In this document: positions 1,253-58,708 of the stretch, piece after piece
How positions within the stretch are numbered: the first letter of the stretch is position 1
How the letters are laid out: every line of letters begins with the position of its first letter
Assembly (NCBI GenBank): GCA_963810635.1
Contig: CAWEOB010000006.1
Coordinates: forward strand, 68,982-132,981
DNA length: 64,000 bases
Source of the DNA: an uncultured Actinomycetes bacterium
Lineage (GTDB): Bacteria; Actinomycetota; UBA4738; HRBIN12
Direction: 5' to 3'
Notes under the pieces: generated by a model
The model's input: only the letters and a program-made list of their open reading frames with translations
What the model was told of the DNA's origin: nothing
The model's database searches: none
Translations under genes and position numbers: made by a program

Positions 1253-2440
1253 CGTTCGGAGAGCCTCTGACTGGGGGACAGGACGACGCAGTCCCACCCC
1301 GCGCGGGTGAGCACGAGGGTGGCTTGGGTCGCACGGCCTTCGAGCTGCTTCTTGCGGACGGGCGGGACGGACGAGGGATCCACGGGGTGGATCAAGATCG
1401 CCAGCTTCGGACCGTATCCCGATCCGGCGCGCGCCAAGGTGGGGAGCTCGCGCTCGTTCGGCGGGGCCGCGACGAAGACGAGGGAGGCCTCGGGTGAGGC
1501 GGCGCTCCGAAGGTGGGTGAGGGCCGTGGAGATCGACGGAGCGCGCCCGTGCGTCAAGCCGGCGAGGGCTTCGAGGAAGCGATCCTCGGTGAGGGTCGAG
1601 ACCGGAGTGTCGGCGGTGGCCAGGCGCAGCACGAAACCGTTCCGAGCCAAGAGCATCCCCACGCTGGCGGCGCACGACACCGCGCGCTCGAACGGGGGAT
1701 CGTGCGCCCGCCCGATGGCGGCCTCACGCGTGTCGATGAACAGGACCCCGGCGGCCCGTCGCGAGGCCTCGTTCTGGCGGATCATCGAGATCGCCCGTCT
1801 TCGCGACCGACGGCCAATGGATCAACCGCAGATCGTCACCTTCCTGGAACGCGCGCATCGTGAAGTAGTCCTCGCCGGTGCGGAGGAGCTGTCGTGCGCG
1901 AGCGGCACCGAAGCCGGCCCCGCTCGACGGGTCGTGCGGTGCGATGAGATCCTCGATCTCCGGCGTGACCAGGAGCTCGTCGCGCTGGTCGATGCGCAGG
2001 CGGTTGCGGCTGAGGGCGAACGGGTCGGAGATGTCGATCTTCAAGGGTCCGAGCGAGAACCTTCCGCGGGTCTGGGGCAGGAGCGTGTAGCTGAGGCTCT
2101 GCGCGGCGCGGCCGGCGATCCCGGTGACGACCAGGCGTGCAGGCCGACCGAGCGCCGGCGGGAGCACATCCTCGACCAGGAGCATCGGGGTCCGGCCGGT
2201 GGAGCGATTCCGGATCTCGAGCCCGACCGTGACGCGTGTTCCCGGCGCCACGCGGAAGTCGGACAGATGCCTGCGGACCTCGAGGTCCTTCCGGTTGATC
2301 CGCAACGAGAGGGCAGAGAGGAACGGCAGGACGCCGATGCCGATCGCCACGACCTCGAGCCCCGGCGACCCGATCAGCCGAGCCGCGAACCACATCGCGA
2401 GGCCCGCCAGCGCGACGGTGACCCCGCGGGACGCGAGCAT
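1210..2440 (-). CDS. DUF58 family protein (MoxR-associated). Apparent +1 insertion near 1786 splits it into two ORFs.
   Basis: ORF 1724..3025 (from Met196 'MLASRGV') carries the conserved GDDLRLIHWPSVAKTGDL. It continues as MIRQNEASRRAAGVLFIDTRE in ORF 1210..1785. The start ATG overlaps the moxR stop (ATGA). Confidence 0.7.
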
Positions 2441-3446
2441 CAGGGACTCTCCGCCACCGGGACGGGCGTCTGCGCGAGCAGCTCGGCCAGGAGGGAGTGC
2501 GGCGTCCTCCCGGACATGGCGGCGTCGGCGGTCACGATGATCCGGTGGGCGAGGACCGGGATGGCGAGGGCTTTGATGTCGTCGGGCACCACGTAGTCGC
2601 GCTCGACCGACGCGGCGTAGGCGCGGGCCGCCCGCAGGAGCATGATCGAGGCTCGGGGGCTGGCGCCCAGGTAGACGTCGGGGTGATCGCGCGTCGCCTC
2701 CACGATGGACACGATGTATCGGCGGATGGCGTCCGCGGTGTGCACCCGGGCGGCTCGCGCGATCATGTCGGCGACGCCGAGCGAGTCGGTGACCGGTCCG
2801 ATGTCCCGCAGCGGTTGCCCCGACGCGTGGCTGGTGAGGATGTCGGCCTCGACGTCCCGGTCGGGATAGCCGATCGAGAGTCGCAGCATGAAACGGTCGA
2901 GCTGTGCCTCGGGGAGCGGATACGTGCCCTCGTGCTCGACGGGGTTCTGCGTGGCGATCACCATGAACGGGGTGCCGAGGGCGTGGGTTTCGGCGTCGAT
3001 CGTGACCTGCCGCTCCTCCATGCACTCCAGGAGGGCGGACTGGGTCTTCGGGGAGGCGCGGTTGATCTCGTCGCCGAGCACGATGTTCGCGAACACCGCT
3101 CCGGGCTTGAACTCGAAGTCACCATGCTCCTGGTTGAAGACGTTCACCCCCGTGATGTCCGTGGGCAGCATGTCGGGCGTGAACTGGATCCGCCTGAACG
3201 AGCAATCGATCGAGCGGGCGATCGCCTTCGCGAGCATCGTCTTGCCGACGCCGGGCACATCTTCGATGAGGAGATGACCTTCCGCGACGAGGGCGACGAG
3301 CGCCAGACGGATCTCGTCGTGCTTGCCGCGAACGACCCGTTCCACGTTCGTGGCGACCTCGCCGAAACGGGCGGCGAACGCCCCCTCGTCCCGGTCCCGC
3401 TCAAGCTGGTCCACGAGCACCTCCCTCGAACCGTCCCATGGTACGG
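2440..3446 (-). CDS. moxR: MoxR-family AAA+ ATPase
   Basis: 335 aa from MAAAVPWDG. Walker A GVGKT and the MoxR signature [28 protein letters not shown]. Confidence 0.85.
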
Positions 3447-3723
3447 CCGCAGCCATATTCCGTTCTACGTGCGGGCGGCGGCGCCAAGGTGTATCGCCGT
3501 TGCGTGCGGATGTCCCCATCTCGATATGAAGACGCCCGAGAGCGCCGTTTCGTTGAGCGAGGATGGACCGGAAAGGAACCGAAGGGAAGAGGAAGGGCCG
3601 CCTCGGTCGGCGGACGCCCCGCGCGGCCCCTGTTCGCAACTCCAGGCATCCCGGCCGAGGCGGCCCCGCGGGAAGATTACACACTTGTGATCTTGGTCTC
3701 CAGCGCTGCACCGTCCCGTACAC

Positions 3724-4215
3724 TTGCGTGTCATGGGACGCTCCCTCGTCCTCAATGTGACCGACCTGCCGCTCGCGGTCGTACCCGCGAGGCGGGCCGT
3801 CGTGCTCGTCCTCAAGGACAAGGCAGAGGTCGTCTTGTCGAACGGGGCCATCTTCCGGTCCGAGAAGATCACCTTCGAGGCGCCGTCCATCGTCCGGCTC
3901 CGCCGGTTCGTGCACGTGCCGTTCCGCGCCCACGCTCCCCTCACGCGCCGGGCGGTGTTCGCACGTGACGGTTGGCAGTGCCAGTACTGTGGTTCCACCG
4001 CCGAGAACCTGGACCACGTCGTCCCCCGGAGCCGAGGGGGCCTGCACGTCTGGGAGAACGTGGTTGCTGCCTGCCGGCGCTGCAACGCCAAGAAGATGGA
4101 CCGGACGCCGAGCGAGGCCGGCTTCCATCTCCACCGGCAGCCGTTCGCACCCTCGGACGGCTTCCGGCTCACGCTCGGCCAGCCCGAACCGGGCTGGGAG
4201 CAGTACCTGATCTGA
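3724..4215 (+). CDS. HNH endonuclease family protein (McrA-like, conserved actinobacterial)
   Basis: CQYCG...H(N)...CRRCNAKK zinc-finger/HNH motifs. Divergent from moxR. Confidence 0.7.
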
Positions 4216-4302
4216 GGCTGTCCCCGGATCGTCCTGGTTCCCGCGGCCAACCGCCGCGTCCACACCCTCGCCATCTCCGAACAACAGTTCGGGCGCACTC
4301 TA

Positions 4303-4370: not shown

Positions 4371-4795
4371 CGAACTCCTCGGCACGCATAGCTACCAGCT
4401 CGACCCGAAGGGGCGCGTGTCCCTGCCGGGCCGGTTCCGCGAGGCGTTCGCCGACGGGACGTGGCTCACGGTGGGACAGGACGGGTGCCTCTTCGCCTTC
4501 CCCAGGGCCGAGTGGGAGCGCCGTGCCGACGAGATCGGCGCGTCCCCCCTTTCCGACGCGACGGGGCGCGCCTACGCCCGCATGTTCTTCGGCGGCGCGG
4601 AGGAAGCGAAGCTCGACAGCCAGGGGCGGCTCGACGATCCCCCAGCGGCTCCGGGATGCCGCCGCGATCCGCTCGGAGGTCGTGGTCCTGGGCGTCCGGG
4701 AGCGGATGGAGATCTGGGACCGCGAGTCCTACGAGCGCTACCTGGCCGAGTTCGCCGGCGCGTATCAGGCAGGGTCCCTCGAACCAGGGAGGTAA
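4366..4795 (+). CDS. mraZ: Transcriptional regulator MraZ. Apparent +1 insertion at about 4633-4636.
   Basis: N-terminal LLGTHSYQLDPKGRVSLP and SQGRL are in frame 1. The C-terminal IPQRLRDAAAIRSEVVVLGVRERMEIWDRESYERY is in the next frame (ORF 4523..4795). An upstream GTG at 4345 is an alternative start. Confidence 0.75.
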
Positions 4796-4916
4796 CGAGC
4801 GTGGAACCACGCGGGAAGTTGGCGAGTGAGGTCAGGCAGAGCCTCTCCTTGATCGGCATGACGGCGCTCACGCTGCTCGCGTCGATCGGGTTCGGACTGC
4901 TGGTCGGACGCGCCGG

Positions 4917-7974: not shown

Positions 7975-9477
7975 CCGGGGAGCAGGGCCGTGTAGGCTCG
8001 CGGCCGGTGGACCGCCCCTTCCCCCCCGTCACGCTCGCCGCGGTCGCCGACGGCGAGAAGATCCGCGGCGATCCCGAGACCCGCGTCGTGGACGCGGCCT
8101 ACGACTCCCGCGAGACAGGTCCGGGGTTCCTCTTCTTCTGCATCCGCGGAGGGCATCAGGACGGCCACGATCATGCGGGTGAGGCCGCCGCACGGGGTGC
8201 GACCGCCCTCGTGGTCGAGCGGTGGCTCGACGACGTGGAGCTCCCGCAGATCCACGTGTCGTCCGTCCGTTCGGCGATGGGTCCGATGTCGGCCACGGTC
8301 TTCGGGGATCCTGCATCGTCGCTCACGCTGGTCGGCGTCACCGGCACGAACGGGAAGACGACCACGACCTACCTGCTCGAGGCCGTGTTCCGCGCCGCCG
8401 GGAGGACCCCGGGCGTGATCGGCACCACGGGGGCGAGGATCGATGGCCGTGCGGAGGCTCTCGCCCGCACCACTCCCGAGGCACCCGATCTGCATCGGCT
8501 GTTGGCCCGGATGCTCCGTGGAGGCGTCGACACGGTCGCGATGGAGGTGTCGTCCCACGCGCTCGCCCAAGGCAGGACCGATGGAGCCGTCTGCGACGTG
8601 GCCGTGTTCACGAACCTCTCCCAGGACCACCTGGACTACCACACGTCGATGGAGGCGTACTTCGATGCGAAGGCGCGGTTGTTCATCCCCGCGATGGCTC
8701 GCCACGGCGTCATCAATGTCGACGACCCGTTGGGCCGGAGCCTCGCCGAACGCCGCTCCATCCCGGTGACCACGTACGCCCTCGAGCGTGACGCCGACGT
8801 CGGCGCCAGCAACGTGCGTGCCGACGCCGACGGTCTCTCCTTCGTGGCGGACGGCGTCTCGGTCCGGTCGCGCTTGCTCGGCCGGTTCAACGCGTGGAAC
8901 TGCCTCAGCGCCTTCGCGACCGGCCGGGTCCTGGGGTTCGAGGCGGACGTCGTGGCCGACGGCATCGCCTCGGTGCGAGACGTCCCCGGCAGGATGGAGC
9001 TCGTCGAGGCCGGCCAGGAGTTCCTCGTGGTGGTGGATTACGCGCACACGCCGGATAGCATCCTCGGCGTGCTCCGGGGCGCACGCCCGCTCGCAACGGG
9101 CCGGGTGATCGTGGTGTTCGGTTGTGGTGGTGACCGCGACCGGGCGAAGCGTCGCGACATGGGGCGAGCCGCCACGGCGGAAGCGGATCTGACCATCGTG
9201 ACCAGCGACAATCCGCGGTCCGAAGACCCGCTGTCGATCGATCGCGTCGATCCTTCCGGGGGCGGACGAAGGCGGCGGGGCCTACGTCGTCGAACCCGAT
9301 CGTCGGGCCGCGATCCGGTCCGCCATCGACGACGCCGGGCCGGGTGACGTCGTGGTGATCGCGGGCCGAGGTCACGAGACGATCCAGGAGACCCGATCCG
9401 GGCAGGCGCCGTTCGACGACCGTGTCGTGGCGCGCGAGGAGATCGTCCGGTCGCAGGTCCGCGGTGGCGCCGCGTGA
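7971..9477 (+). CDS. murE: UDP-N-acetylmuramoyl-tripeptide synthetase MurE. Apparent +1 insertion at about 9246-9249.
   Basis: GTNGKTT and DNPRSEDP motifs. The true C-terminus ([47 protein letters not shown]...) lies in the next frame and ends with a TGA overlapping the murF GTG. Confidence 0.8.
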
Positions 9478-10835: not shown

Positions 10836-11894
10836 TCTCGATCCTGGTCGCGGCGGGCGTTGGGCTCGCCGTCACGCTCCTGGGAACGCCGATCGCGATC
10901 CGCGCCTTCCGTGCGTGGGGGTGGGGTCAGCGCATCCGGGAGGACGGACCCCATACCCACATGGAGAAGATGGGCACGCCCACCATGGGGGGGATCCTGA
11001 TGCTGGCAGGACTCGTCCTCGGCTACCTGGCATCCCGTCTCTCCGCCCAGCGGTTCACCGCGACGGGTCTCGCGCTGGTGTTCGCGGCGGTGGGCTTCGG
11101 CCTGGTGGGCTTCCTCGACGATTTCACGAAGGTCCGCCGGCGGCGATCGCTCGGACTGAACAAGTGGCAGAAGTTCCTGGGGACGGCCGTCGTGTCCGTC
11201 GGGTTCGCCGTCTTCGTGGTCATGACGAAAGATGAGACCGGGATCTCCACCAGCCTGTCCTTCCTCCGGCCGACGGGGATCGCGCTCGGGGCGTTCTTCT
11301 TCGTTTGGGTGTTCATCATGCTCACGTCGTCGTCGCACGCGGTGAACCTCACGGACGGGCTCGATGGTCTGGCAGCCGGCTCGGTCGATCCTCGTGTGCT
11401 CCGCCTACATCTTCATCGCCTTCTGGCAGTTCCGGCATACGTGTGCCCTGCTGGCGGATGCCTCGGGTTGCTACGGGGTCAACGGTGTCGACATGCAGGA
11501 CGCGGCGATCGTGGCCGCCGCCATGCTCGGCGCCGCCACCGGGTTCCTGTGGTGGAACGCAGCGCCTGCCCGGATCTTCATGGGCGACACCGGTGCCCTC
11601 GCGCTCGGCGGGCTCTTCGGCGCCTTGGCGGTCGTGACGAACACGCAGCTCTTGCTCGTGATCCTGGGTGGGCTGTTCGTGATCGAGACCCTCTCGGTGA
11701 TCATCCAGGTGATCTCGTTCCGCGGCTTCGGCCGGCGTGTCTTCCGGATGTCGCCCATCCATCACCATTTCGAGCTGTTGGGATGGCCCGAGTTCACCGT
11801 GATCGTCCGGTTCTGGGTCATCGCGGGTCTGTGCTCGGCGGTCGGCATCGGGCTGTTCTACGCGGACTTCATCGCTCGGGGAGGCCTCGGGTGA
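10832..11894 (+). CDS. mraY: Phospho-N-acetylmuramoyl-pentapeptide transferase MraY. Apparent +1 insertion at about 11384-11387.
   Basis: GTG overlaps the murF stop. N-terminal part (..[15 protein letters not shown]) is in the long-ORF frame. C-terminal part ([26 protein letters not shown]..) is in ORF 11364..11894. Confidence 0.8.
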
Positions 11895-13261: not shown

Positions 13262-14544
13262 AGCCACCGCGAAGCGGCGAGCGACCGACGCCCCCCGTGC
13301 GCGCTCCCGCCCGTCGCTGAAGGTCGTTCCTCGGCCTCGTGCGAGGGCCTCGGGTGACGCCGCGCGTCTCGCCCGGGTGGACAGGATCCTGCTGCTGCTC
13401 TCGTCCGGCTTCCTCACGGCGACCGGATTGGTCATGGTGTTGTCGGCCGGGTCCGTCTCGGCGACGCAGGGGTACGACGGGAACCCCTTCTGGTACTTCC
13501 AGCGCCAGCTCGTCTACGCGGTGGTGGGGGTCATCCTCGCGGTGATCGTCGCGCGCCTCCGTCCGTCGATCTGGCGCCGACTCGGCTTCCCGCTGTTGGC
13601 GGTGACAGCGCTCCTGATGCTGCTCGCCGCCCACCCTTCATCCGGGACCTCGTTCTACGGCGCGTCGCGGTGGATCGACATCGGACCGATCACGTTGCAG
13701 CCGTCGGAGTTCGCGAAGCTGTTCCTGGTGGCGGTGAGCGCCGCGATCCTCACCAACAAGTGGTCGAAGCGCGACGACCTGGGCCATCTCCTCGTACCGC
13801 TCGCGCCCGTGGTGGGCGCCGTGGCGGTGCTCGGCATCTTGCAGCGCGACCTGGGGACCACCTTCGATCCTCTGCACGACGGTCTTCTTGATGCTGTTCA
13901 TCGCGGGGGTCCGTCTCCGCTACCTGTCGGTGGCCGGGATCGCGGGCGCCCTCTGCCTCGCCTACCTGATCCTCGGCGAGTCGTACCGGCGCGCGAGGTT
14001 CGTCGAGGCCTACCTCCGCCCCTGGGACGACCCGAAGGGTGACGGCTACCAGCTGATCCAAGGTCTCATCGCGATCGGGTCGGGTGGGTGGTTCGGAACC
14101 GGACTCGGCACGAGCCGGGCGAAGTGGGACTTCCTGCCGAACGCACACTCCGACTTCATCTTCGCGGTGATCGGTGAAGAGCTGGGCTTGCTCGGGGCCC
14201 TCGTGGTGCTGATCGCCTTCGGCGTGCTCGTGTATGCGGGCATCAGGATCGCGATCCACGCGCCCGGTGTGTTCGAGCGCCTGCTGGCGGCGGGGATCAT
14301 CGCGTGGATCGGCACGCAAGCGATCGTCAACCTCGGCGCCGTCACGGGCATCCTCCCGATCACCGGCGTGCCGCTGCCGCTCGTCTCGTTCGGAGGTACC
14401 GCGCTCGTGGTGACGCTCGCGGGGATCGGCGTCCTCGCGAGCATCGCCCGAGCGACGGGCAGGGTCGGCTCCGACCCGGGCGGGTCGAGCGCGGACGGAG
14501 CGGGGGAGCCCGCGGCCCGACCGTCACGGAAGGGGCGTCGGTGA
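13248..14544 (+). CDS. ftsW: Peptidoglycan glycosyltransferase / lipid II flippase FtsW (SEDS family). Apparent +1 insertion at about 13863-13866.
   Basis: Basic N-terminal tail then TM core. The ORF 12954..14042 frame switches to ORF 13888..14544 (ILCTTVFLMLFIAGVRLRYL...GWFGTGLG...PITGVPLPLVSFGGT). Confidence 0.8.
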
Positions 14545-18015: not shown

Positions 18016-18723
18016 GTGGCTCGCGACCCGACGCCGTCAGGCCCTGGTGGCGGCGATCGCCGGGACCCTCCTCGTGGCGACCGCCGCCTCGGCCCTCACG
18101 TTCAGCCCCGTCTTCGGCGCGCGCCACATCGACGTGACCGGGAACGAGTCGCTCGAGCGAGAGCAGGTGCTGGCGGCCGCTGGACTCGAGCTCGGGATCG
18201 AACGTGGCCCACCTCGACGCAGAGGCCGTCGAAGGGCGGCTGCGCGCCGAACCCTGGGTGGAGGACGCCACCGTCGAACGCGATCTTCCCGGGGACCATC
18301 CTGGTCCACATCCAGGAGCGCGTGCCCGTCGCGACGCTCCTCGGCGGGACAGCGCTCGCCAGCGACGGCACCGTGCTGCCCGGCGCCTCCACCGCACGGC
18401 TGCCGGAGATCCGACCGAGCTACGGGTCCCTCCAGCCCGGATCCGCCGCCGCGGCCGCAGCCGCGATCGCGGCGCTGGCACCGACGATCCGTGATCGCGT
18501 GCTCGCCGTCGTGGTTCAACCTGACGGGTGGATGCTGGTGCAGCTGAGGAACGGGGTCAGCGTGGTCTACGGCGACGCGAGTGCCCCGGGGGCGAAGGCG
18601 GCCTCCCTGCACGCGATCCTCCGATGGGCCCGCGACGTGGGGAGCGAGCTCCGACGCGTCGATGTCTCGGTTCCCTCCACGCCCAGCGTCACCCTCGCCA
18701 GCGGCTCGACGTACGCGCCGTGA
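18005..18723 (+). CDS. ftsQ: Cell division protein FtsQ/DivIB (POTRA domain). Two apparent +1 insertions, near 18200 and near 18292.
   Basis: N-terminus and TM in ORF 17993 frame. POTRA segment [30 protein letters not shown] in ORF 18204 frame. The rest ([18 protein letters not shown]...[16 protein letters not shown]) in ORF 18016..18723 frame. Confidence 0.7.
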
Positions 18724-26125: not shown

Positions 26126-26161
26126 GTTCCCGTCGTCGCCTGTGCGGGGCATGCTACATGC

Positions 26162-26395: not shown

Positions 26396-26444
26396 CCAGG
26401 GAGAACAGGTTCGAACGAGCCTGTTCTGCTACCCTGCGCCGACC

Positions 26445-40755: not shown

Positions 40756-41511
40756 CGGACGCGATGTCCGGGGAGACGGCACCCGCGGAAGAACGCCGTC
40801 CGGTCCTCGAGCTGCGCGACGTCAGCACGCACTACGGCCTCGTCTCGGTGCTCCGCAACGTCGACATGCGAGATCTACGCGGGAGAGATGGTCTGCTTGC
40901 TCGGGGGGAACGCCTCGGGCAAGAGCACGACCCTGAAGACCGTCCTCGGGTACGTCGTCCCCACCGAAGGTGAGGTCCTCTTCGAAGGGGAGGTCGTGAG
41001 CGGGCTCTCCACCGCCGAGATCGTGCGCCGGGGCATCTCCATGGTGCCCGAGAACCGGCGGCTCTTCGGGTCCATGACGGTCGACGAGAACCTCACGCTC
41101 GGGTCGTACCTCCGGTCGGACCGGGCCGAGATCGATGCGGATCGCGAACGGGTCCTCGAGACGTTCCCCAGGATCCGCGAGCGCTTGAAGCAGAAGGCGG
41201 GGACGCTCTCCGGCGGTGAGCAGCAGATGGTGGCCATGGGCCGGGCCCTCATGGCGAACCCCTCGGTCCTGCTGATGGACGAGCCGTCCATGGGGCTCGC
41301 ACCGGTGCTCGTGGAACAGGTCTTCGAGATCATCCAGCGCATCCGGGAGCTCGGGAAGACCATCTTCGTGGTCGAGCAGAACGCGAACATGGCGCTGTCG
41401 ATCGCGGATCGAGGGTACGTGATCCAGACCGGCCAGGTCGTGTTGTCCGATACGGCCAGCGGGCTCCTCAACAACCCGCTGATGCGTGAGGCGTACCTGG
41501 GCGAGATGTGA
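40752..41511 (+). CDS. livF: Branched-chain amino acid ABC ATP-binding protein LivF. Apparent +1 insertion at about 40869.
   Basis: VLRNVDM in ORF 40752. Then EIYAGEMVCLLGGNASGKST...LSGGEQQM in ORF 40888..41511. Confidence 0.8.
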
Positions 41512-42447
41512 TGCGCGTCGTCGACGCCGAGGAGCTCCGATCACGGCTGTCCATGACCGCGGCGATCGACGCTCTGGAGGAGGCCTTCCGTCTCGATGAC
41601 CCGGGGACCGCGGGTCCCGTGCGATCGTCCGTCGACACCCGTGCCGGCTCCCTCCTCCTCATGCCCGCCGCCGGCTCCCGCGGCGTCGGTGTGAAGCTCG
41701 TGACGCTCACCGAGGCGAACCCCGCACGAGCGTTGCCGTTCATCCATGCGGTCTATGTCCTGTTCGACGCCGCCTCGCAGGCGCCGGAGGCCGTCGTCGA
41801 TGGGTCCGCGCTCACCGCGCTGCGGACCGCCGCGGTGAGCGGGCTCGCCACCCGCTTCCTGGCGCGCCCTGAGGCGCGGCGTCTCGTGCTGTTCGGCGCC
41901 GGCGTGCAGGCGACCGCGCATCTCGAAGCGATGACCGCCGTTCGGCCGGTGGAGGACGTGGTGGTGGTGCGCGCGATCCGGGCCGTGCCGAGGCGCTCGC
42001 CGAGCGGGCGCGAGCTGCGGGTCTCACGGCCTCCGTCGGAGGAGCGGGAGCGGTCGCTGATGCGGACCTGGTCTGTACGTGCACCACCTCCCGGGAACCG
42101 TTGTTCCGCGGGGAAGAGCTGGCCGCCGGGGCCCACGTGAACGCCGTCGGCGCCTATCTGCCGGACACGCGCGAGGTGGACACGTCCACGGTCCGCCGTG
42201 CCCGCGTCGTGGTGGAGACGCGCCAGGTGGCGTTCGCGGAGGCCGGCGACCTGCTCCTGCCGATCGCCGAGGGAGCCGTGGACGCGTCGCAGGTGGTGGC
42301 GGACCTCGCCGAGCTCGCTCGGGGGCAAGGGTCCGGACGTCGCCCGACGACATCACCCTGTTCGAGAGCGTGGGGATGGCGTTCGAGGACCTCGTCGTCG
42401 CTCGGGCTGCCGCGGAGACCTTCGGGCGGAGCGGGATGACCGGATGA
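41508..42447 (+). CDS. Ornithine cyclodeaminase / mu-crystallin family protein. Two apparent 1-nt deletions, near 41970 and near 42344.
   Basis: Split over ORFs 41508, 42101 and 42079. GTGA-coupled to livF and ATGA-coupled to the next gene. Confidence 0.65.
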
Positions 42448-43590
42448 GCGAGACCGCGGACGTCGTGGTGATCGGGGGCGGGATCGTCGGCTGCTCCGCC
42501 GCGTACCACCTCGCCGCCGCCGGCGCAGGCCGCGTGGTGCTGGTGGAGCGCGAAGGGGCCGTCGGCCGTGGTGCCACGGGGGCCTGCGCCGGCGGCTTCC
42601 GCCAGCAGTTCACGAGCGAGATCAACATCCGCCTCTCGCAGGCGAGCGTGCCGATGATCCTCGGCTTCGAGCAGGAGCACGGGATACCCGTGGATGTCAG
42701 CCAGGACGGGTACCTGTTCCTCGTCCGCGAGCAGGCCACCTGGTCGGGGTTCGAGCGCGGCATCGCCCTCCAGCGCTCGCTGGGCGTCGAGGTCGAGGTC
42801 CTCGATGCGGGCGCTGTGACGCGGCTCGTCCCGGGCCTCATGGTGGACGACCTCGTAGGGGCCACCTTCGGCCCCGCCGACGGGATCGCGGACCCGGGGG
42901 CGTTGACCCAGGGCTACGCGACGTTGGCGAGGCGTGCGGGCGCCGACGTCCGACTCGGGGTGACCGTGGAAGGTCTGCTCTCAGGCCCCGAGACCGTGGC
43001 CGGCGTGCGGACGGGGGACGGGGAGAATCGCCGCCGGGGCGGTCGTCCTCGCCGCGGGTCCCTGGTCCGGCGTCCTCGCCGCCGGCGCCGGGATCGACCT
43101 GCCCATCGAGCCGGTCCCGCGGGTCGTGCTGACCACGGGTGTGTTCCCGGGCGTTCCCGTGCGGCGGACGCTGGTGATCGACGCGGAGAGCTCCTTCTAC
43201 TTCCATCGGGAGGGTGAGGGGGTCCTGATGGGGATGGGCGGCGACGATGTCCCCACCTTCGACACCGAGGTCGACGACGGATTCGTGACCGACGAGCTCC
43301 TGCCGCGAGCGCTCGCCGTCTACCCGCCGCTGGCCGAGGCGGGGATCCGGTCGCGCTGGGCAGGTCTCTACGAGATGACCCCCGACCGACACCCGGTGAT
43401 CGGCCCGGGCCCGGTGCCCGGACTCTGGATCGCAGCCGGGTTCAGCGGGCACGGGTTCCAGCACGGTCCGGTGGTCGGAAGGTTGATGGCCGAGATGATC
43501 ACCGGCAAGGAGCCGACGATGGACGTCTCCTCGTTGTCCTTCGACCGCTTCGCACGGGGGGCGCTGATCGCGGAGGGGCACGTGGTGTGA
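42444..43590 (+). CDS. FAD-dependent oxidoreductase (DAO family: sarcosine/opine/glycine oxidase-like). Apparent +1 insertion at about 43026.
   Basis: VVVIGGGIVGCSAAYHLA dinucleotide-binding motif. The C-terminal half is in ORF 43126..43590. Confidence 0.7.
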
Positions 43591-43591
43591 G

Positions 43592-43675
43592 TGCCGGGAG
43601 CGGGGGTCGAACCCGCACGGGCCGAAGCCCACGGGATTTTGAGTCCCGCGCGTCTGCCAGTTCCGCCATCCCGGC
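43592..43675 (-). tRNA. tRNA-Leu (anticodon CAA)
   Basis: Cloverleaf with acceptor GCCGGGA/TCCCGGC, anticodon loop CUCAAAA, long variable arm GGGCUUCGGCCC and T-loop GGGUUCGACCCCC. Close to E. coli tRNA-Leu(CAA). CCA is not encoded. Confidence 0.85.
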
Positions 43676-47250: not shown

Positions 47251-48015
47251 CCGCTCCCGATGGCGAGACGGTCGTCCAGATCAGGAACCTCCACAAGACG
47301 TTCGGGTCGCTGGAGGTCCTCAAGGGCATCGACATGGACGTCCTCAAGGGCGAGGTCGTGGTCATCTTCGGTCGGTCCGGATCCGGGAAGAGCACCCTGC
47401 TCCGGTGCGTGAACTTCCTGGAGGATCCCACCGACGGGACGATCGAGGTCGCGGGCATCCAGCTGAGCGGTGGGCACCGGACGAAGCACCAGCGGGAGCA
47501 GATCCGGAAGCTGCGAACCCATTGCGGCATGGTGTTCCAGCAGTTCAATCTCTTCCCGCACCTCAGCGTGGTCGGCAACGTGATGGAGGGCCCGGTGATC
47601 GTGAAGGGCCTGAAGGCCGACGATGTGCGTCCCATGGCACTGGCGCTCCTCGAGAAGGTCGGGCTCGCGGACAAGGCCGACGAGTACCCCATCCGGCTCT
47701 CCGGTGGTCAGCAGCAGCGGGTGGCCATCGCCCGAGCGCTGGCGATGGAGCCGGACGTGATGCTCTTCGACGAGCCCACGTCGGCCTTGGACCCGGAGTT
47801 GATCGGCGAGGTCCTCGCGGTTATGAAGTCGCTCGCGACCGACCTCCACATGACGATGATGGTCGTGACCCATGAGATGGGGTTCGCCCGTGAGGTCGCG
47901 AACCGGATGTGTTTCTTCCACGAGGGAGTCGATCCTCGAGGAGGGCTCGCCGGACGAGCTCTTCAACCACACCCGGGAACCCGAGACGCAGAAGTTCCTC
48001 GAAGCCGTCCTGTGA
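47247..48015 (+). CDS. Polar amino acid ABC transporter ATP-binding protein. Apparent +1 insertion at 47931.
   Basis: [17 protein letters not shown]. The C-terminus [27 protein letters not shown] is in the next frame. Confidence 0.8.
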
Positions 48016-49837: not shown

Positions 49838-50508
49838 CTACGCGGTCGCGGGCTCGACCCAGAGGTGGTCGGCGAGGTCGAAGCCGAGAGCGGACGTGGT
49901 CCCGCCGACGTCGAGGCGCATCGTGCCGTCGGGGCCCGTGGCGAGCACCTCGACGGTCGCGCCCGGCATCAGCAGGCTCTCCTCGAGGAACCGCATCACG
50001 TCGAGCTCGAGCTCGAGGTCCTCGGTGAGCCGGCGCAGGATCACCGTGGCGCCCGGCTCCACGTCCTTCAACGCGACCAAGCCGCTCACGTCGACCTCGT
50101 TGGCCGAGCCGGGGATCGGGTTGCCGTGCGGACACGCCCCGGGGTCACCCAGGATCACGACCAGCCGCTCTTCGACCTGCGACGAGATCACCCGTTCCCA
50201 GCGCTCCGCCTCGGCGTGCGCCTCGTGCCACGGGAGGCCGATCACGTCGATGAGGAGATGCTCGGCGAGCCGGTGGCGGCGGACGAGCGCGATCGCCATG
50301 GCCTGCCCGGCCGTCGTGAACGCCAGATCCCGTCCGTGCTGCTCGAGCAGGCCGTCGGCCACGAGCCGCTTCACGTGCTCGGAGACCGTGGGACGGGACA
50401 GACCCATCCATCGTGAGAGCTCGGCCTGGACGGGGGGAAGCCTTCCTCGAAGAGCTCGTAGAGCGCCTCGAGGTAGTCGGCGGAGGGGTGTCGATCTTCG
50501 AGCGTCAC
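49838..50508 (-). CDS. DtxR/IdeR-family metal-dependent transcriptional regulator with C-terminal SH3-like domain. Apparent 1-nt deletion in the G-run at 50432-50437.
   Basis: N-terminal VTLEDRHPSADYLEALYELFEEG.PP is in one frame. VQAELSRWMGLSRPTVSEHVKRLV...DtxR core plus the C-terminal domain are in the next frame. Confidence 0.7.
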
Positions 50509-50530
50509 GGGCGGAGACTACGATAGGTCT

Positions 50531-53193
50531 GTGACCCCCGACGGCGCCGCGGCCCCTCGCCGGCTCTTCCTCCTCGACGGCCACAGCCTCGCGTACCGGG
50601 CGTTCTTCGCGTTGCCGCAGACCCTGGCCACCAGCAGCGGAACGGTCACCAACGCCGTCTACGGGTTCACGTCGATGTTGATCAAGCTCCTCGCCGACGA
50701 GAGCCCCGACCTCATCGCGGTGGCGTTCGACATGGGGCCGCCCACCATCCGTCTCGAGCTCGATGCCGAGTACAAGGCGGGTCGCGCGGAGGCACCCGCC
50801 GAGTTCCGTCCCCAGCTCGGTCTCATCGAGGAGGTGCTCGACGCGCTGAAGATCCCGCCGATCCGCCCGGAAGGTCACGAAGCCGACGACGCGATCGGCA
50901 CGCTGGCGCTCCAGGCGTCCCAAGGAGGGATCGACGCCGTCATCGTCACGGCGGACCGCGACTTCTTCCAGTTGGTGCGGGACCGTGTGGATGGACGCGG
51001 CGCGGTCTCCGTGCTCTTCAACCGCCGGGGCATCTCGGAGATCGACCTCATGGACCCGCTGGCCATCGAGGCCCGCTACGGCGTCCGTCCCGACCAGTAC
51101 CTGGACTTCGTGGCGCTCAAGGGCGACACGTCGGACAACATCCCCGGTGTGCCGGGGGTCGGCGACAAGACCGCGGCGAAGCTCGTCCAGGAGTACGGCA
51201 CCGTCGAGGAGCTGCTGGCGCACGTGGAGGACCTCAAGGGCAAGCTGAAGGAGAACGTGGCGGCGGCGGCCGACCGGCTCGCCCTGAACAAGCAGCTCGC
51301 GCGCATCGTCACGGATGTGGCGCTCGAGGTAGGCCCCGAGGACTGCTCCATGGGTGCGTGGGATCACGACCAGGTCCGGCAGCTCTTCGGTGCGCTGGAA
51401 TTCCGATCGCTGCTCGACCGTCTCAGCGAGGTCGTCGGGACCGAGCCCAAGGTCGAGGTAGCCGAGCTCGACCTCGAGCAGACCACGGTCACGCGGGTCG
51501 CGGAGATCCTTGGCCGGGGGGACGTTGCGGTCCGCTTGCACGAGGACGACGCCCATGTCTCCGGGATCGCGGTGTCGGCCGGCGGGGCCCAAGCCGCGTA
51601 CGCCCCCTTGGATGGCCTGGTTCCGCTCGCCGACGTGCTCTCGGACACGCGTGTCGCCAAGTGGGCGCACGACGGCAAGGAACTCGAGCGCACGGCCCGC
51701 CAGGCGGGGATCGAGATCGGGGGATCTCGTTCGACACCATGCTGGCGGGGTACCTGCTGGACCCGGCCACGGCCGACTACCCGCTGCGCCACCTATGCGA
51801 GCGCTACCTGGGGACCGACGTCCTGGGGTTGGCCGAGGATGAGGCCGAGGGGCAGCTGTTCGCCGAGGACCCGTGGCGGATCGTGGCGGCGGAAGCTGCA
51901 GCCGTGGCCCTGCTCGCGCCGCTCCTCCAGGAGAAGGTCGACAAGCAGGGCCTGCGCGGCCTCCTCGAAGACGTGGAGCTCCCGCTCTCGTCGGTCCTGG
52001 CACGGATGGAGGCTCGAGGTGTGCGTTTGGACGTCGACTACCTCACGGAGATGGGGGAGTCCGTCCGCGACCGGATGGCCACGCTGAAAGCCGAGGTCTA
52101 CACGCAGGCGGGCCGCGAGTTCAACCTCAATTCCCCCCCGCAGCTCCGCGAGGTGCTCTACGGCGAGCTCGGCCTGCACCCCGGCAAGAAGACGCCGAAG
52201 GGCGAGCTGTCCACCGACGCCAGCGTCCTCGAGAAGCTCCGCGAGGCGCACCCGGTCGTCGACGCACTGCTCGCCTGGCGGGAGCTCGACAAGCTCAACT
52301 CGACCTACCTCGAGGCCTTGCCCAGGCTGGTCGACGCGCGGGACGGACGCGTCCACACGTCGTTCAACCAGGCGGTGGCGGCGACGGGCCGGCTGAGCTC
52401 GTCGAACCCGAACCTCCAGAACATCCCGATCCGCTCGGAGGTCGGACGTCAGATCCGCCAGGCGTTCATCCCCGGCGAACCGGGCCAGGTGCTCCTCGTG
52501 GCCGACTACTCGCAGATCGAGCTCCGGATCCTCGCGCATCTGTCGGGCGACGAAGGGCTGAAGGATGCGTTCGCGGCGGGGGAGGACATCCACGCGGCCA
52601 CCGCGGCGAAGGTCTTCGACCTCCCGATCGCGCACGTCGACGGCGAGCTCCGGCGGCGGGCCAAGATGGTCAACTACGGCCTCGCCTACGGCATGAACGC
52701 CTACGGCCTGGCCCAGCGCCTCGACATCCCTCCCGACGAGGCCGAGGAGATCCTGAACGGGTACTTCGACGGCTTCCCCAAGATCCGCGACTACCTCCGG
52801 GAGCAGGTCGAGCAAGCTCGGCGCGACGGGTTCACGGAGACCATCCTCGGGCGGCGCCGGTACATCCCCGAGCTGACCAGCGGCAATCGCCGGCTCCAGG
52901 CTCTCGGGGAGCGCCAAGCGCTCAACGCGCCGATCCAGGGGAGCGCCAGCGACGTCTTCAAGGTGGCCATGATCGAGGTCGACCGTGCGCTCCGCGGTGA
53001 CCCCGGTCTCGGGTGCTCCATGCTGCTCACGGTCCACGACGAGCTGGTCTTCGAGGTGGCGGAGGGGAACGTCGACGCCGCCGCGGATCTGGTCCGCGAC
53101 CGGATGGAGCACGCCATCGGATTGACGGTGCCGTTGGTGGCGTCCATGGGGTGGGGCGCGAACTGGGCCGAGGCCGCCCCGGAGGGCCACTGA
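50531..53193 (+). CDS. polA: DNA polymerase I. Apparent 1-nt deletion in GGGGG at about 51719-51723.
   Basis: 5'-3' exonuclease and polymerase domains. Split between ORF 50531..52087 and ORF 51358..53193. Confidence 0.85.
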
Positions 53194-55116: not shown

Positions 55117-55715
55117 GTGAAGCTGATCGGGCTGACCGGCGGGATCGGGTCGGGGAAGTCCACCGTCGCGGGCATGCTGGAGGCCCGGGGAGCGGTCGAT
55201 CCTGGACGCCGACGCGTTCGCGCGGCTCGCCGTCCAGGCGGGGACCGAAGGCTTCCGCCGGGTGGTGGCCCGGTTCGGGCAGGGCGTCGTGGGACCCGAC
55301 GGCGAGCTCGACCGGCCGAAGCTCGCCGCGATCGTCTTCCACGACCCGAAGGCGCTCGAGGACTCTCGAAGCCATCGTTCATCCGGAGGTCCGGCGTCTG
55401 ATGACCGATGGCATCGTCGAGAACGTCGACTCCGATCGCGTGGTGATCCTCGTGAACCCGCTGTTGATCGAGATGGGGACCCACCGCGACTGCGATCTGG
55501 TCGTGGTCATCTCCGCGACGCCGGAGACGCAGGTGAGCCGGAGCGTCGCGCGCGGCATGGAGGAGGACGATGTGCGGGCCCGTCTTGCGGCCCAGATGCC
55601 ACTGGAGGAGCGCGCGCGCCATGCCGACGTCCTGCTGGACAACGGGGGAACGCTGGAGGAGCTCCGAGCGCAGGTCGACGAGCTGTGGCCCCGGCTCACG
55701 TCGATCGGGAGCTGA
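55117..55715 (+). CDS. coaE: Dephospho-CoA kinase. Two apparent +1 insertions, near 55198 and near 55364.
   Basis: [12 protein letters not shown]. Protein reconstructed across ORFs 55117, 55262 and 55110 (...[12 protein letters not shown]...DPKALEDLEAIVHPEV...). Confidence 0.75.
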
Positions 55716-55741
55716 TCGCGACCCACGGCTATCCTTCCGCG

Positions 55742-56446: not shown

Positions 56447-56811
56447 CCGAGCGCCTCTTCACCCGCGAAGAGGCGGACGCGGAACTGGACGACCTGCGCG
56501 AGCGCCTGCCCCGGATCCGGGAGGCACGCCGTGGCCTGATCGCGACGAGCGAGCAGATCGACGAGGCCGTCTCGATCGACGGCGGGGGGATCGAAGCCTC
56601 GAATTGGTTCCGGTTCCAGCAGACCTTGAAGGACGACGTGGAGCACCTCGCCACGCAGGGGATCCTGCTCCGCGACCCCGAGACGGGGCTCGTGGACTTC
56701 CCGGCCGAGCTCGACGGCCGGCGGGTCTTCCTCTGCTGGCGCCTGGGGGAGGATGAGGTGGCCTACTTCCACGAGGAGCACAGCGGCTACTCGGGACGGA
56801 AGCCGTTGTGA
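56443..56811 (+). CDS. DUF2203-family protein (conserved actinobacterial, unknown function)
   Basis: 122 aa. GTGA-coupled on both sides. Confidence 0.5.
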   Translation: MTERLFTREEADAELDDLRERLPRIREARRGLIATSEQIDEAVSIDGGGIEASNWFRFQQTLKDDVEHLATQGILLRDPETGLVDFPAELDGRRVFLCWRLGEDEVAYFHEEHSGYSGRKPL

Positions 56812-57788
56812 GCGAGACGTGGCGACCGGTGGTGGTGGTCCTCGGCGCGAGCGCCGAGGACCCGCCGCCCCGGATGGAACGGGCGTCGGAGCGCGCGGAT
56901 GTCCGGTTCGCAGCGGACGGCGACGCCCTCCGGGCCGTGGTCCCCGAGGTCGACGCCCTGATGTTCTGGGGGGCTCGCCGCGAGTGGCTGGTGGAGGCAT
57001 GGCCGCTCGCGGAGCGGCTCCAGTGGATCCAAGCCGCGAGCGACGGCGTCGACCGGCTGCTCTTCCCCGCGCTCGTGACCAGCCACGTGCTCGTGACGAA
57101 CGCGCGCGGCGTGTTCGACGACCCCATCGCCGAATGGGTGATGGCGGCGATCCTGTCCTTCGAGACGGGTCTGCGGGCATCCGTCCAGGACACGGCTGCC
57201 GGGCGATGGACCGATGGTCGTCCCCGGGGCCGGGTCGCCGGACGGCGCCTCCTGGTCGTAGGCCCGGGACCGATCGGGACGGCGACCGCGGTGCGTGCGC
57301 GCGCCCTCGGGATGGAGGTCGCAGCGGTGGGCCGCCAGGCGCGTCACGACGAGCTGTTCGGCGCGGTCGTCGGTCCGGAGGACCTCCACGCGTCGCTCGC
57401 GTGGGCGGATCACGTGCTCGATGCGCTCCCGCTCACGCCGCAGACGCGTGGCTACTTCGACCGCGCGGCGTTCGCGTCGATGCAGCCGGGAGCACGCTTC
57501 TACAACGTCGGTCGGGGTGCGACGGTCGACGAACACGCCCTGATCGACGCGCTGCGCGGCGGCCGGCTGGCCGGCGCGGCGCTCGACGTCTTCGAGGAAG
57601 AGCCGCTCCCCACGGGCTCACCGCTGTGGACGCTCCCCGAGGTGATCGTCTCGCCACACGTCTGCGGGGATGTCGAGGGTTGGGAAGGCGCCGTCGTCGA
57701 CGTGTTCCTGGACAACCTCGATCGGTTCACGCGAGGGGAGCCGCTCCGCAACATCGTGGACACGACCGCCGGATTCGGGGTGGGCTAG
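56808..57788 (+). CDS. D-isomer-specific 2-hydroxyacid dehydrogenase family protein
   Basis: NAD-binding GPGPIGTA and the catalytic R/E/H region. Confidence 0.75.
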
Positions 57789-57798
57789 GATCGATGCC

Positions 57799-58708
57799 GT
57801 GACCGAGCGCGTGATCGAGGTGCGCGGGCTGGTGAAGCGCTACGGCGACCTGGCTGCGGTCGACGGCATCGATCTGCACGTCGACCGGGGCGAGGTCTTC
57901 GCCCTCCTCGGTCCGAACGGCGCCGGCAAGACGACCACCACGGAGAGTCCTGGAGGGGTATCGCCCCCGCACGGAAGGTGAGGTCTCGGTCCTCGGCCAC
58001 GACCCTTCGCGTCCAGACCGCGCCCTGAAGGAGCGGATCGGGATCGTGCTCCAGTCCACGGGGGTCGACCCGTTCCTCACCGTCCGAGAGACGATCGAGA
58101 TGTACGCGGGCTACTACCCGCAGCGCCGCTCGACCGACGATGTGATCGAGGTCGTCGGCCTCGGTGAGAAGGCGGACGAGGGCGTGCGGCGCCTCTCGGG
58201 CGGCCAGCAACGACGACTGGATGTGGCCATCGCCCTCGCGGGGGATCCCGAGCTCCTCTTCCTCGACGAGCCGACCACCGGCTTCGACCCCAGCGCGCGG
58301 AGGAACGCGTGGGAGGTCGTGAAGAACCTCGTGGCCCTCGGGAAGACGGTGTTCCTCACGACGCACTTCATGGACGAAGCGCAGTACCTCGCCGACCGGG
58401 TCGCGGTGATCGCGAAGGGGAAGGTCGTGGCGGAGGGACCGCCCGCGACGCTCGCAGGACGGGAGTCCATGGTCGCGAAGATCAGCTTCCGGCTGCCGCC
58501 CGATGCGCCGGAACCTCCCGACCTGGGTCAGGTTCCGGTCGGGGACGGGTACCTCGAGGTACGCGCGGGCGACCCGACGGAGGCGCTGCACCGGCTCACG
58601 GGTTGGGCGCTCGAGCGCGGCGTCGGGCTCGACGGGTTGGAGGTCCAGCGACCGACGCTCGAGGACGTGTACCTGGACCTTACCGGCGGCGAGGAAGGGT
58701 CGGGATGA
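57799..58708 (+). CDS. ABC-2 type exporter ATP-binding protein (DrrA-like). Apparent +1 insertion at about 57947.
   Basis: [10 protein letters not shown] in ORF 57670 frame. [18 protein letters not shown]...LSGGQQRR in ORF 58046 frame. Confidence 0.75.

What the first reader, a model, noticed from the sequence alone, without database searches (positions are those of the whole stretch)
1780..57951. Around 20 single-nucleotide indels break 16 conserved genes, clustered at GATC / 'CGATCC' sites and G/C homopolymers
Reassembling each protein across adjacent ORF-track frames shows one-base indels in the DUF58 gene, mraZ, murE, mraY, ftsW, ftsQ (two), ftsZ, yggS (two), livF, the OCD-family gene (two), the FAD oxidoreductase, an ABC ATPase, the dtxR-family gene, polA, coaE (two) and a second ABC ATPase. 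About 15 of 20 lie within 3 nt of a GATC in the observed sequence; 4 are in G/C runs of 4 or more. The observed octamer GTCGATCCT recurs at four independent sites (murE, mraY, ABC ATPase 47931, coaE 55198), with TTCGATCCT in ftsW and GACGATCCC in mraZ. Each of these is best repaired by deleting the G, i.e. true CATCC read as CGATCC. The mirror GGATCG occurs on the other strand in ftsQ and ftsZ. Essential genes cannot all be pseudogenes, so this is most likely systematic sequencing or assembly error. The motif specificity hints at basecalling trouble at a methylated site (Dam-like GATC or a GGATG/CATCC methyltransferase), which would itself be informative about the restriction-modification complement.
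Basis: partly seen in the sequence, partly recalled or inferred. Interest (0 to 1): 0.8.

Follow-up and report, generated by a model that had tools for sequence, protein, structure and literature searches.

The report
Sequencing-error frameshifts clustered at GATC sites
Twenty one-base insertions and deletions that break 16 conserved, mostly essential genes are errors of a long-read-style assembly, not biology, and they pile up next to GATC (especially TCGATCC) and in runs of G.

Summary
A homologue-guided scan that knew nothing about motifs found exactly 20 one-base frame breaks in 16 genes: 14 extra bases and 6 missing bases. The genes are DUF58, mraZ, murE, mraY, ftsW, ftsQ x2, ftsZ, yggS x2, livF, OCD x2, a FAD oxidoreductase, two ABC ATPases, dtxR, polA and coaE x2.

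Fifteen of the 20 lie within 3 nt of a GATC. Chance gives 3.2, and none of 20,000 randomisations reached 15. Nine lie at CGATCC/GGATCG (chance 0.9). Four of the six GTCGATCCT copies adjoin a break. All six missing bases fit a G/C run read one base short.

Both sides of every break match intact orthologues in relatives, so these are consensus errors, not pseudogenes.

The murE error lies 6 nt upstream of the octamer. The mraY and mraZ errors lie 2-4 nt upstream of a native CGATCC. In ftsW and ftsZ, and wherever the position is well resolved, a native GATC remains beside the error.

A related Nanopore MAG shows the same GATC[G]ATCC insertion twice. Eleven other Nanopore loci (about 235 kb) carry one frameshift in total. 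Methylation of a GATC-containing motif is plausible but unproven.

Low biological interest. The record needs polishing.

The parts
1786..1787 (-). DUF58 gene: extra base (C1786 or G1787). The minus strand reads GAT CTC [G]ATG ATC. The site lies between two GATCs.
   Evidence: Translations: frame -1 ends ...HWPSVAKTGDL and frame -0 continues MIRQNEASRR. There is a weak Pfam DUF58 hit on the C-terminal piece. Relatives cover the N-terminal piece only down to 1826.
4632..4633 (+). mraZ: extra C or G in CT[CG]ACGATCC, 2-3 nt 5' of a native GATCC.
   Evidence: Removal gives QGRLTIPQRLR, and Thr is present in 6 of 8 relatives. Removing the C or G next to the GATC scores -44 and -48.
9240..9241 (+). 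murE: extra G (less likely A) in TCGATC[G]ATCGCG.
   Evidence: Removal gives EDPLSIIASILPG, matching DPLAII in relatives. Removal inside the downstream GTCGATCCT gives SIDRVILP and falls below the -80 cut-off for listing.
11383..11384 (+). mraY: extra G in CTC[GG]TCGATCCT, at the 5' edge of a native GTCGATCCT.
   Evidence: Removal gives GLAAGSSILV. The second Ser is invariant in 8 relatives. The C/G of TCGA scores -60.
13865..13866 (+). ftsW: extra C (or G) in TT[CG]ATCCT.
   Evidence: Removing C gives DLGTTLIL, and relatives have Leu in 5 of 8 and never Phe. Removing G scores -29.
18187..18198 (+). ftsQ, first extra base. Best fit is C/G of CTCGAG (18187/8). T18198 inside GGGATCG is nearly as good.
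   Evidence: 6 relatives; poorly resolved.
18286..18294 (+). ftsQ, second extra base, somewhere in GATC-TTCCCGGGG (runs T2, C3, G4).
   Evidence: All nine positions score equally and give ERDLPGTILV.
19574..19574 (+). ftsZ: extra G in GGGATC[G]ACGTCG.
   Evidence: Removal gives [14 protein letters not shown], identical to 8 relatives. Removing C gives Met and scores -30.
20325..20331 (+). yggS, first missing base, in CGAGGTGG^ATC (a G run abutting GATC).
   Evidence: The reading path is frame 1, then 3, then 2: ANLASIRG / ISDAADRAGR / DPSHVLLVAAAK.
20354..20363 (+). yggS, second missing base. Most likely GGGAGG^GATCC, which restores RAGRDP.
   Evidence: Relatives carry RAGRDP / RSGRDP.
40870..40870 (+). 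livF: extra G in ATGC[G]AGATCTAC.
   Evidence: Removal gives VDMQIY, and Gln is present in 5 of 6 relatives.
41969..41972 (+). OCD-family gene, first missing base, in GTG^CGCGCGATCC.
   Evidence: The repair restores VVVVARDPGR. The site is 3-6 nt 5' of a GATC.
42322..42331 (+). OCD-family gene, second missing base, in or just after a G5 run (CTCGGGGGCAAGGG).
43013..43027 (+). FAD (DAO) oxidoreductase: extra base in GGGGGACGGGGAGAATC. The position is unresolved.
   Evidence: only 2 relatives.
47930..47932 (+). ABC ATPase: extra C or G in GT[CG]ATCCT.
   Evidence: Removal gives FFHEGVILEEG.
50428..50440 (-). dtxR-family repressor: missing base in a G6 run (C6 on the coding strand).
   Evidence: 1 relative, L088. 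The repair restores EEGFPPVQAEL.
51716..51724 (+). polA: missing base in GATCGGGGGATC (G5, flanked by two GATCs).
   Evidence: The repair restores AGIEIGGISFDT.
55197..55199 (+). coaE, first extra base: C or G in GT[CG]ATCCT.
   Evidence: Removal gives EARGAVILDADA.
55363..55364 (+). coaE, second extra base: C or T in GA[CT]CTCGAA. No GATC within 30 nt.
   Evidence: Removal gives KALEDLEAIVHP.
57938..57947 (+). Second ABC ATPase: extra base, best fit G in ACG[G]AGA. No GATC nearby.
   Evidence: The repair restores the Walker A segment [13 protein letters not shown].

Best explanation
The 20 frame breaks are consensus errors of a long-read-only metagenome assembly, most likely Nanopore without short-read polishing. 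The organism's real genes are intact.

There are two error classes.
(1) Extra bases (14 events). They are almost always a C or G. Ten or eleven lie 0-3 nt from a GATC, with a hot spot at observed TCGATCC / GGATCGA. The typical outcome is T^GATC read as TCGATC, which is the same as GATC^A read as GATCGA on the other strand.
(2) Missing bases (6 events). All fit a G/C run read one base short: 7 to 6, 6 to 5 twice, 3 to 2 twice, 2 to 1. Three of them abut a GATC.

Inferred mechanism: around GATC-containing k-mers the base-caller mis-segments the current and emits one base too many. At modest read depth a single polishing round keeps the error.

I think it slightly more likely than not (about 0.45-0.5) that the trigger is a base modification in a GATC-containing motif, Dam-like GATC or GGATC/GATCC. 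The remainder is an unmodified-context failure of the base-caller.

Shown here: the events, their positions, the motif enrichment and the intactness of orthologues. Inferred: the sequencing platform, the role of coverage and the methylation.
For: Twenty breaks, all single-base, each flanked on both sides by sequence that aligns to one orthologue in relatives.

There are no in-frame stops or other decay, and GC3 periodicity continues across each break.

Motif enrichment was measured with motif-blind localisation. GATC within 3 nt: 15 of 20 against 3.2 expected, with none of 20,000 randomisations reaching 15. CGATCC: 9 against 0.9. TCGATC: 8 against 0.8. Four of six GTCGATCCT copies adjoin a break.

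The deletions all lie in G runs.

The nearest relatives are Microflora Danica Nanopore MAGs. That catalogue was made with R10.4.1, Guppy sup, Flye and one round of Medaka, with no short-read polishing (PMC12313526).

A sister MAG locus, L089, has at least 4 frameshifts, all +1. Two are at GAGATC[G]ATCC and CAGATC[G]ATCC.

Eleven other Nanopore loci with the same GATC density (about 235 kb) have only one frameshift, so the effect is genome- or coverage-specific rather than universal.

Ten of 12 GATC-proximal sites are GGATC/GATCC, against a 47% background (P = 0.011).

Literature: errors in native bacterial DNA concentrate within +/-5 bp of methylation motifs, including GATC. Substitution and insertion rates rose in native reads on CycloneSEQ, while the R10 profiles were more variable (bioRxiv 10.64898/2026.01.14.699587).
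Against: The platform and coverage of the source are not known. The source contig (166,894 bp, in NCBI and ENA) is hidden from the look-ups.

Methylation-linked Nanopore errors reported in the papers read are mainly substitutions. A test for excess amino-acid deviations next to GATC was not significant (6 of 181 against 23 of 1225, P = 0.25).

Only about 2% of GATC sites and about 10% of TCGATCC sites are affected. No DNA methyltransferase gene lies in the window.

Five events have no GATC nearby (OCD-b, FAD oxidoreductase, dtxR, coaE-b, ABC-57.9k).
Confidence: 0.88

Rival explanations
1. The artefact is the same but has nothing to do with methylation. It is a sequence-context failure of the base-caller or polisher at T-GATC-C-like k-mers in very GC-rich DNA. 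It shows up here only because read depth for this bin was low.
For: The identical GATC[G]ATCC insertion occurs in a second, different organism's MAG. Only a small fraction of GATC sites is affected, and the flanks matter (TCGATCC 7 of 53 against other CGATCC 2 of 124). There is no excess of substitutions near GATC. Homopolymer deletions co-occur, as expected for low depth.
Against: Eleven other loci, apparently from the same pipeline and with equal GATC density, have essentially no such errors. A Nanopore contig compared with Illumina contigs of the same species shows no 1-nt indels. The second affected MAG is a fairly close relative that could share a methyltransferase.
Confidence: 0.4
2. A FokI-like GGATG/CATCC adenine methylation makes true CATCC read as CGATCC.
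For: ftsW, ABC-47.9k, coaE-a and the two L089 events can each be repaired by deleting the G, leaving C-ATCC.
Against: argues against it in several genes.
- ftsW scores better with the C removed (Leu conserved).
- ftsZ would need Met in place of an invariant Ile.
- The murE site is ATC^ATCG.
- In mraY and mraZ the CGATCC is native and the error is upstream.
- The livF and DUF58 sites have no ATCC.
In addition, the remaining CATCC/GGATG sites (218) are not enriched near any break (2 of 20 against 1.1).
Confidence: 0.06
3. The frameshifts are real. The genome is decaying and rich in pseudogenes, or the consensus mixes strains that carry real indels.
For: None beyond the presence of the indels. 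Frameshifted genes do occur in reduced or host-restricted bacteria.
Against: Essential single-copy genes (ftsZ, ftsW, mraY, murE, polA) are hit. The density is 20 in 64 kb. There are no accompanying stops or large deletions, and codon bias is not relaxed. Both halves of each gene remain about 40-95% identical to orthologues. The motif specificity has no mutational rationale in 16 unrelated genes.
Confidence: 0.03

Closest known systems
Motif-localised Nanopore base-calling errors at methylated sites (Dam GATC, Dcm CCWGG and strain-specific motifs)
   Same: The errors cluster within a few bases of a short motif. They depend on flanking context and survive into consensus sequences. GATC is one of the classic motifs (PMC11610603 listed).
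   Different: The papers I read describe mainly A/G and C/T substitutions. Here only indels are detectable, and no substitution excess was seen. Methylation of this organism's GATC is not shown.
Homopolymer-length errors of long-read consensus sequences
   Same: All six missing bases, and up to four of the extra bases, sit in G/C (or T/A) runs. PMC11649196 describes under-calling of runs longer than 4-5 bases as typical for ONT.
   Different: Three deletions are in very short runs (2-3 G). Insertions outnumber deletions 14 to 6. Homopolymer error alone does not explain either point.
Unpolished Nanopore-only MAGs of the Microflora Danica long-read catalogue
   Same: The closest relatives come from that catalogue. 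The assembly recipe has no short-read polishing. A sister MAG (MFD09779.bin.2.169, L089) shows the same error signature.
   Different: The provenance of the window itself could not be established. Most loci of that catalogue examined here are clean.
Pseudogene-rich genomes and programmed +1/-1 frameshifting
   Same: Reading frames are interrupted by single-base shifts.
   Different: There are no slippery heptamers or stimulatory structures. Sixteen unrelated housekeeping genes are affected at once. Orthologues in all relatives are uninterrupted.

Membership tests
Sequencing/consensus artefact (not biology) | Each interrupted gene is restored to a full-length, well-aligned orthologue by adding or removing exactly one base. 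| tested here: met
   This holds for all 20 events. The DUF58 case rests on the family motif, with homologues covering the N-terminal half only.
Sequencing/consensus artefact (not biology) | The indels are absent from accurate reads of the same DNA. | not testable with these tools
   No reads are available. The source contig is hidden. The closest independent sequence is only 71-77% identical at the DNA level.
Sequencing/consensus artefact (not biology) | Error positions are non-random with respect to sequence context. | tested here: met
   GATC within 3 nt in 15 of 20 against 3.2 expected, with no randomisation reaching 15; 4 of 6 GTCGATCCT copies adjoin a break.
Methylation-induced Nanopore errors | Errors concentrate within about 5 nt of one short motif. 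| tested here: met
   (GATC; stronger for CGATCC and TCGATC; GGATC/GATCC 10 of 12 against a 47% background).
Methylation-induced Nanopore errors | The motif is actually modified in this organism (signal-level call, or a cognate methyltransferase). | not testable with these tools
   No raw signal is available. No DNA methyltransferase gene was identified among the genes recognised in the 64 kb.
Methylation-induced Nanopore errors | Errors are strand-specific in reads and disappear in amplified DNA or with methylation-aware models. | not testable with these tools
   This requires the reads.
Methylation-induced Nanopore errors | Substitution errors (A/G, C/T) accompany the indels at the motif. 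| tested here: inconclusive
   deviations from invariant columns number 6 of 181 near GATC against 23 of 1225 elsewhere (odds ratio 1.8, P = 0.25).
Homopolymer-length error | The indel lies inside a run of identical bases and changes its length by one. | tested here: met
   Met for all 6 deletions and for up to 4 insertions (mraY, ftsQ-b, FAD oxidoreductase, ABC-57.9k). Not met for the roughly 10 insertions that create a new CpG next to GATC.
Genuine pseudogenes / genome decay | Independent signs of relaxed selection: stops, truncations, loss of codon bias, divergence of the downstream part. | tested here: not met
   Frame-specific GC3 continues on both sides. Downstream parts are as conserved as upstream parts.
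Programmed ribosomal frameshift | The shift site is conserved in orthologues. | tested here: not met
   Apart from one rsmH break in L004 and four or more breaks in L089 in other genes, orthologues in the relatives examined (Illumina and Nanopore) read straight through.

The most novel reading that the evidence does not exclude
The error signature may be a footprint of real DNA modification. An uncultured soil Actinomycetota lineage, and a sister lineage represented by MFD09779.bin.2.169, would methylate a GATC-containing motif, Dam-like or GGATC/GATCC-specific. The frameshift map would then act as an indirect read-out of that methylome.
Probability: 0.4. Interest if true: 0.25.

Novelty: not a real feature. 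Interest (0 to 1): 0.1.

Why it matters
The value is practical, not biological. At a frameshift density of about 1 per 3 kb, gene calling on this contig will split or truncate ftsZ, polA, murE and other markers. That inflates pseudogene counts and distorts completeness and pangenome statistics. Public protein databases already hold products from this contig (the LivM sequence P0001 is identical to the window's), so any broken products called on it would be in them too.

The motif-specific component (TCGATCC/GGATCGA) gives a simple screen for similar errors in other unpolished long-read MAGs of GC-rich bacteria. If the raw signal confirms a modified GATC-type motif, it adds one data point on methylation in an uncultured actinobacterial lineage.

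Tried and rejected
Dead ends:
- Exact look-ups of three intact window proteins, and of the 100%-identical database entry P0001, found no accessible contig. The cluster listing gave no accession. The source and its reads therefore could not be inspected.
- One relative (P0133) had no retrievable DNA.
- A first all-against-all tblastn timed out. I redid it with GC3-filtered ORFs.
- The single metagenome scan, with repaired FtsZ as query, aimed at a near-identical Illumina contig to read the true bases. The best hit (L090) is only 71-77% identical in DNA, which is too far.
- The substitution-error test near GATC was inconclusive.
- The comparison of a Nanopore contig with Illumina contigs of the same species (L084 against L085/L086) showed no 1-nt indels. 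It says nothing about the error motif.

Candidate frameshifts rejected:
- Frame changes at 26.4-28.3 kb suggested by the frame path are three separate intact genes: dksA-like, lspA and rluD.
- The apparent -3/-2 junction near 3.68-3.72 kb lies upstream of the MoxR-like gene's coding region (frame path). It probably reflects a relative's open frame running past the gene start. I did not follow it up.
- Single-relative junctions at 45230, 59209 and 61235 are probably frameshifts of the relative L089, not of the window. L089's own breaks at about 2360 and 17897 match the first and the last.

Ideas considered and dropped:
- TCGA as the primary motif. Eight of 20 events sit on a TCGA core, but 5 of the 7 clean cases are TCGATC against 22% expected, so GATC adjacency carries the signal.
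- Hi-C style GATCGATC ligation junctions. These events are 1 nt, not 4 nt.

Full report
WHAT THE WINDOW IS

The window is a 70% GC actinobacterial chromosome segment. The gene order was recovered from a codon-position GC frame path, Pfam and synteny with relatives. It runs:
- TgpA-like, DUF58 and MoxR ATPase (minus strand);
- the dcw cluster: mraZ, rsmH, ftsI, murE, murF, mraY, murD, ftsW, murG, murC, ftsQ, ftsZ;
- yggS, sepF and neighbours;
- ileS (minus strand), a dksA-like gene, lspA, rluD;
- dnaE, then a His_biosynth-family (hisA-like) gene, trpC, trpB, trpA;
- livK, livH, livM, livG, livF;
- an OCD-family gene, a DAO-type FAD oxidoreductase, a tRNA;
- an amino-acid ABC system;
- cupredoxin, FTR1 and dtxR (minus strand);
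- polA, rpsA, coaE;
- HAD hydrolase, DUF2203, a 2-hydroxyacid dehydrogenase;
- ABC-2 transporter genes, a second amino-acid ABC system, a cyclase and uvrB.

The nearest genomes in a species-level collection share only 55-70% MurD identity. All are soil MAGs, many from the Microflora Danica (MFD) Nanopore catalogue.

CHECKING THE OBSERVATION

I collected orthologous loci from several sources:
- 27 dcw-region relatives;
- liv/OCD-region relatives, including one at 83% LivM identity;
- polA-rpsA-coaE-region relatives, including one at 88% RpsA identity.

Translated searches of their ORFs against the window show pairs of high-scoring segments. Each pair is adjacent in the query and in the window but lies in different frames.

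For each such junction I ran a change-point scan. Every candidate base in a window of about +/-45-75 nt around the junction was deleted, or an N inserted. The repaired peptide was scored with BLOSUM62 against up to ten relatives. Positions at or near the maximum form the credible set (a joint two-site scan for yggS; a manual motif argument for DUF58; alignment columns). The procedure uses no motif information.

Fourteen are extra bases and six are missing bases. No further supported frameshift was found. The frame changes at 26.4-28.3 kb are three separate intact genes.

WHERE THE EVENTS LIE

GATC is extremely common here. There are 741 copies, one per 86 nt. That is four times the mononucleotide expectation but equal to the second-order Markov expectation, so it is an effect of codon usage. 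A random point is within 3 nt of a GATC about 11% of the time.

With the credible sets shifted to random places 20,000 times:

| Motif (within 3 nt) | Observed of 20 | Null mean |
|---|---|---|
| GATC | 15 | 3.24 (sd 1.64; maximum 12) |
| CGATCC/GGATCG | 9 | 0.9 |
| TCGATC/GATCGA | 8 | 0.8 |
| CATCC/GGATG | 2 | 1.1 (not enriched) |

Of the six GTCGATCCT copies, four lie within 6 nt of a break. The other two are ordinary Ser-Ile-Leu codons. Among 177 CGATCC sites, those preceded by T account for 7 of the 9 that lie near breaks. Ten of the 12 clearly GATC-proximal events are GGATC/GATCC, against a 47% background (P = 0.011).

WHAT BASE IS WRONG

- ftsZ: only removal of G19574 restores the invariant GITSLIT. 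The true sequence is GGGATC-ACG.
- murE: removal of G9240 restores DPLSII.
- mraY: the invariant second Ser requires removing one G of CTCGG. This leaves a native GTCGATCCT immediately downstream.
- mraZ: the conserved Thr puts the extra C or G 2-3 nt upstream of a native CGATCC.
- ftsW: Leu (five of eight relatives; never Phe) favours removal of the C, giving TT^GATCC.
- livF: the conserved Gln gives GC^AGATC.
- DUF58: the extra base sits between two GATCs.
- ABC-47.9k and coaE-a: removing C or G both give Val, so they are undecided.

In every well-resolved case a native GATC remains 0-3 nt from the error. 'CATCC read as CGATCC' is therefore not the general rule. The commonest outcome can be written T^GATC read as TCGATC, which is GATC^A read as GATCGA on the other strand.

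The six missing bases all fit a G/C run read one base short:
- dtxR, 7 to 6;
- OCD-b and polA, 6 to 5;
- the two yggS sites, probably GGGATC to GGATC;
- OCD-a, GG to G.

Three of them abut a GATC. Five events have no GATC nearby: OCD-b, the FAD oxidoreductase, dtxR, coaE-b and ABC-57.9k.

ARTEFACT OR BIOLOGY

Several points argue for an artefact.
- Both sides of each break align to a single orthologue at about 40-95% identity.
- Codon-position GC bias continues across breaks.
- No stops or truncations accompany the breaks.
- The affected genes include ftsZ, ftsW, mraY, murE and polA.

In the relatives, orthologues of these genes are uninterrupted at the window's break sites. Two relatives have breaks of their own elsewhere. 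L089 carries its own frameshifts, including one at a different polA position and one at a different position of the ABC ATPase. L004 has one break in rsmH. Real pseudogenisation or programmed frameshifting is not credible.

PLATFORM AND CAUSE

The window's source could not be retrieved. A 100%-identical LivM entry comes from one 166,894-bp contig held by NCBI and ENA, but look-ups of it are blocked.

The neighbours in sequence space are MFD long-read MAGs. Those were made with R10.4.1, Guppy super-accurate calling, metaFlye and a single Medaka round, without short-read polishing (PMC12313526).

I ran the same frameshift detector on related loci.
- Eleven MFD Nanopore loci (about 235 kb) contain a single frameshift: L004 rsmH, in GGTG[CCT]GTC with no GATC.
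- The Illumina-derived loci examined contain none.
- A Nanopore contig matches Illumina contigs of the same species without any 1-nt indel.
- Locus L089, from MFD09779.bin.2.169, has at least four frameshifts. All are +1, and two are at GAGATC[G]ATCC and CAGATC[G]ATCC.

The signature is therefore not universal for the pipeline or for GATC-rich DNA, but it does recur in a second, related genome. That pattern fits either of two explanations:
- a modification of a GATC-type motif shared by these relatives; or
- a context-specific base-caller weakness that reaches the consensus only in low-depth bins.

Published work shows that Nanopore errors in native bacterial DNA concentrate within +/-5 bp of methylation motifs, including GATC. 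Substitution and insertion rates rose in native reads on CycloneSEQ, while the R10 profiles were more variable (bioRxiv 10.64898/2026.01.14.699587). The effect described there is mainly substitutional.

My indirect substitution test was not significant. It counted window-specific residues at columns invariant in at least 8 relatives: 6 of 181 near GATC against 23 of 1225 elsewhere, P = 0.25.

I therefore put methylation at roughly even odds and leave it to signal-level analysis.

VERDICT

The interpretation as systematic sequencing error is right. The proposed CATCC-to-CGATCC rule and the FokI-like alternative are not supported, while a GATC-type (perhaps GGATC/GATCC) context is. There is no new biological feature here. 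The record needs polishing, and the motif can serve as a screen for similar errors elsewhere.

Noticed in passing
L089:2358-2360, 9550-9551, 14957-14958, 17897-17898: The public Nanopore MAG MFD09779.bin.2.169 (contig_17903) carries at least four +1 frameshifts of its own, in a solute-binding protein, the polA C-terminus, an ABC ATPase and a permease. Two are the same GATC[G]ATCC insertion as in the window. Its gene calls are split or fused accordingly.
   Followed up: yes
L004:3284-3286: The MFD00822.bin.2.15 rsmH gene has one extra base in GGTG[CCT]GTCGAC. Eleven relatives support this. There is no GATC nearby.
   Followed up: yes
window 43592-43675 (-): A tRNA gene (Rfam 54 bits) lies directly after the FAD oxidoreductase. 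It is the most conserved short stretch shared with relatives in that region. Its anticodon was not determined.
   Followed up: partly
window 25785-26419: A stretch of about 635 nt lies between the divergent ileS (minus strand) and the dksA-like gene, and the frame path calls it non-coding. The longest ileS ORF runs about 200 codons upstream of the synthetase domain, so the real start is probably further in. No Rfam family, T-box included, reaches threshold there.
   Followed up: partly
whole window: GATC and TCGA each occur exactly 741 times. That is four times the mononucleotide expectation. GATC matches its Markov expectation (745), and TCGA is slightly above its own (668). CTAG is strongly avoided (8 copies against 29 expected from the Markov model).
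   Followed up: partly
window 4783-4906: There is a short coding-like GC3 signal in frame +0 between the end of mraZ and the start of rsmH. No homologue supports it. It may be chance or the rsmH upstream region.
   Followed up: no
window 38192-39970: The LivM protein of this window is present unchanged in the large protein collection as a singleton from one 166,894-bp contig (NCBI and ENA). A JGI metagenome fragment is 95% identical over 81% of the protein, so close relatives of this organism exist in short-read soil metagenomes.
   Followed up: partly
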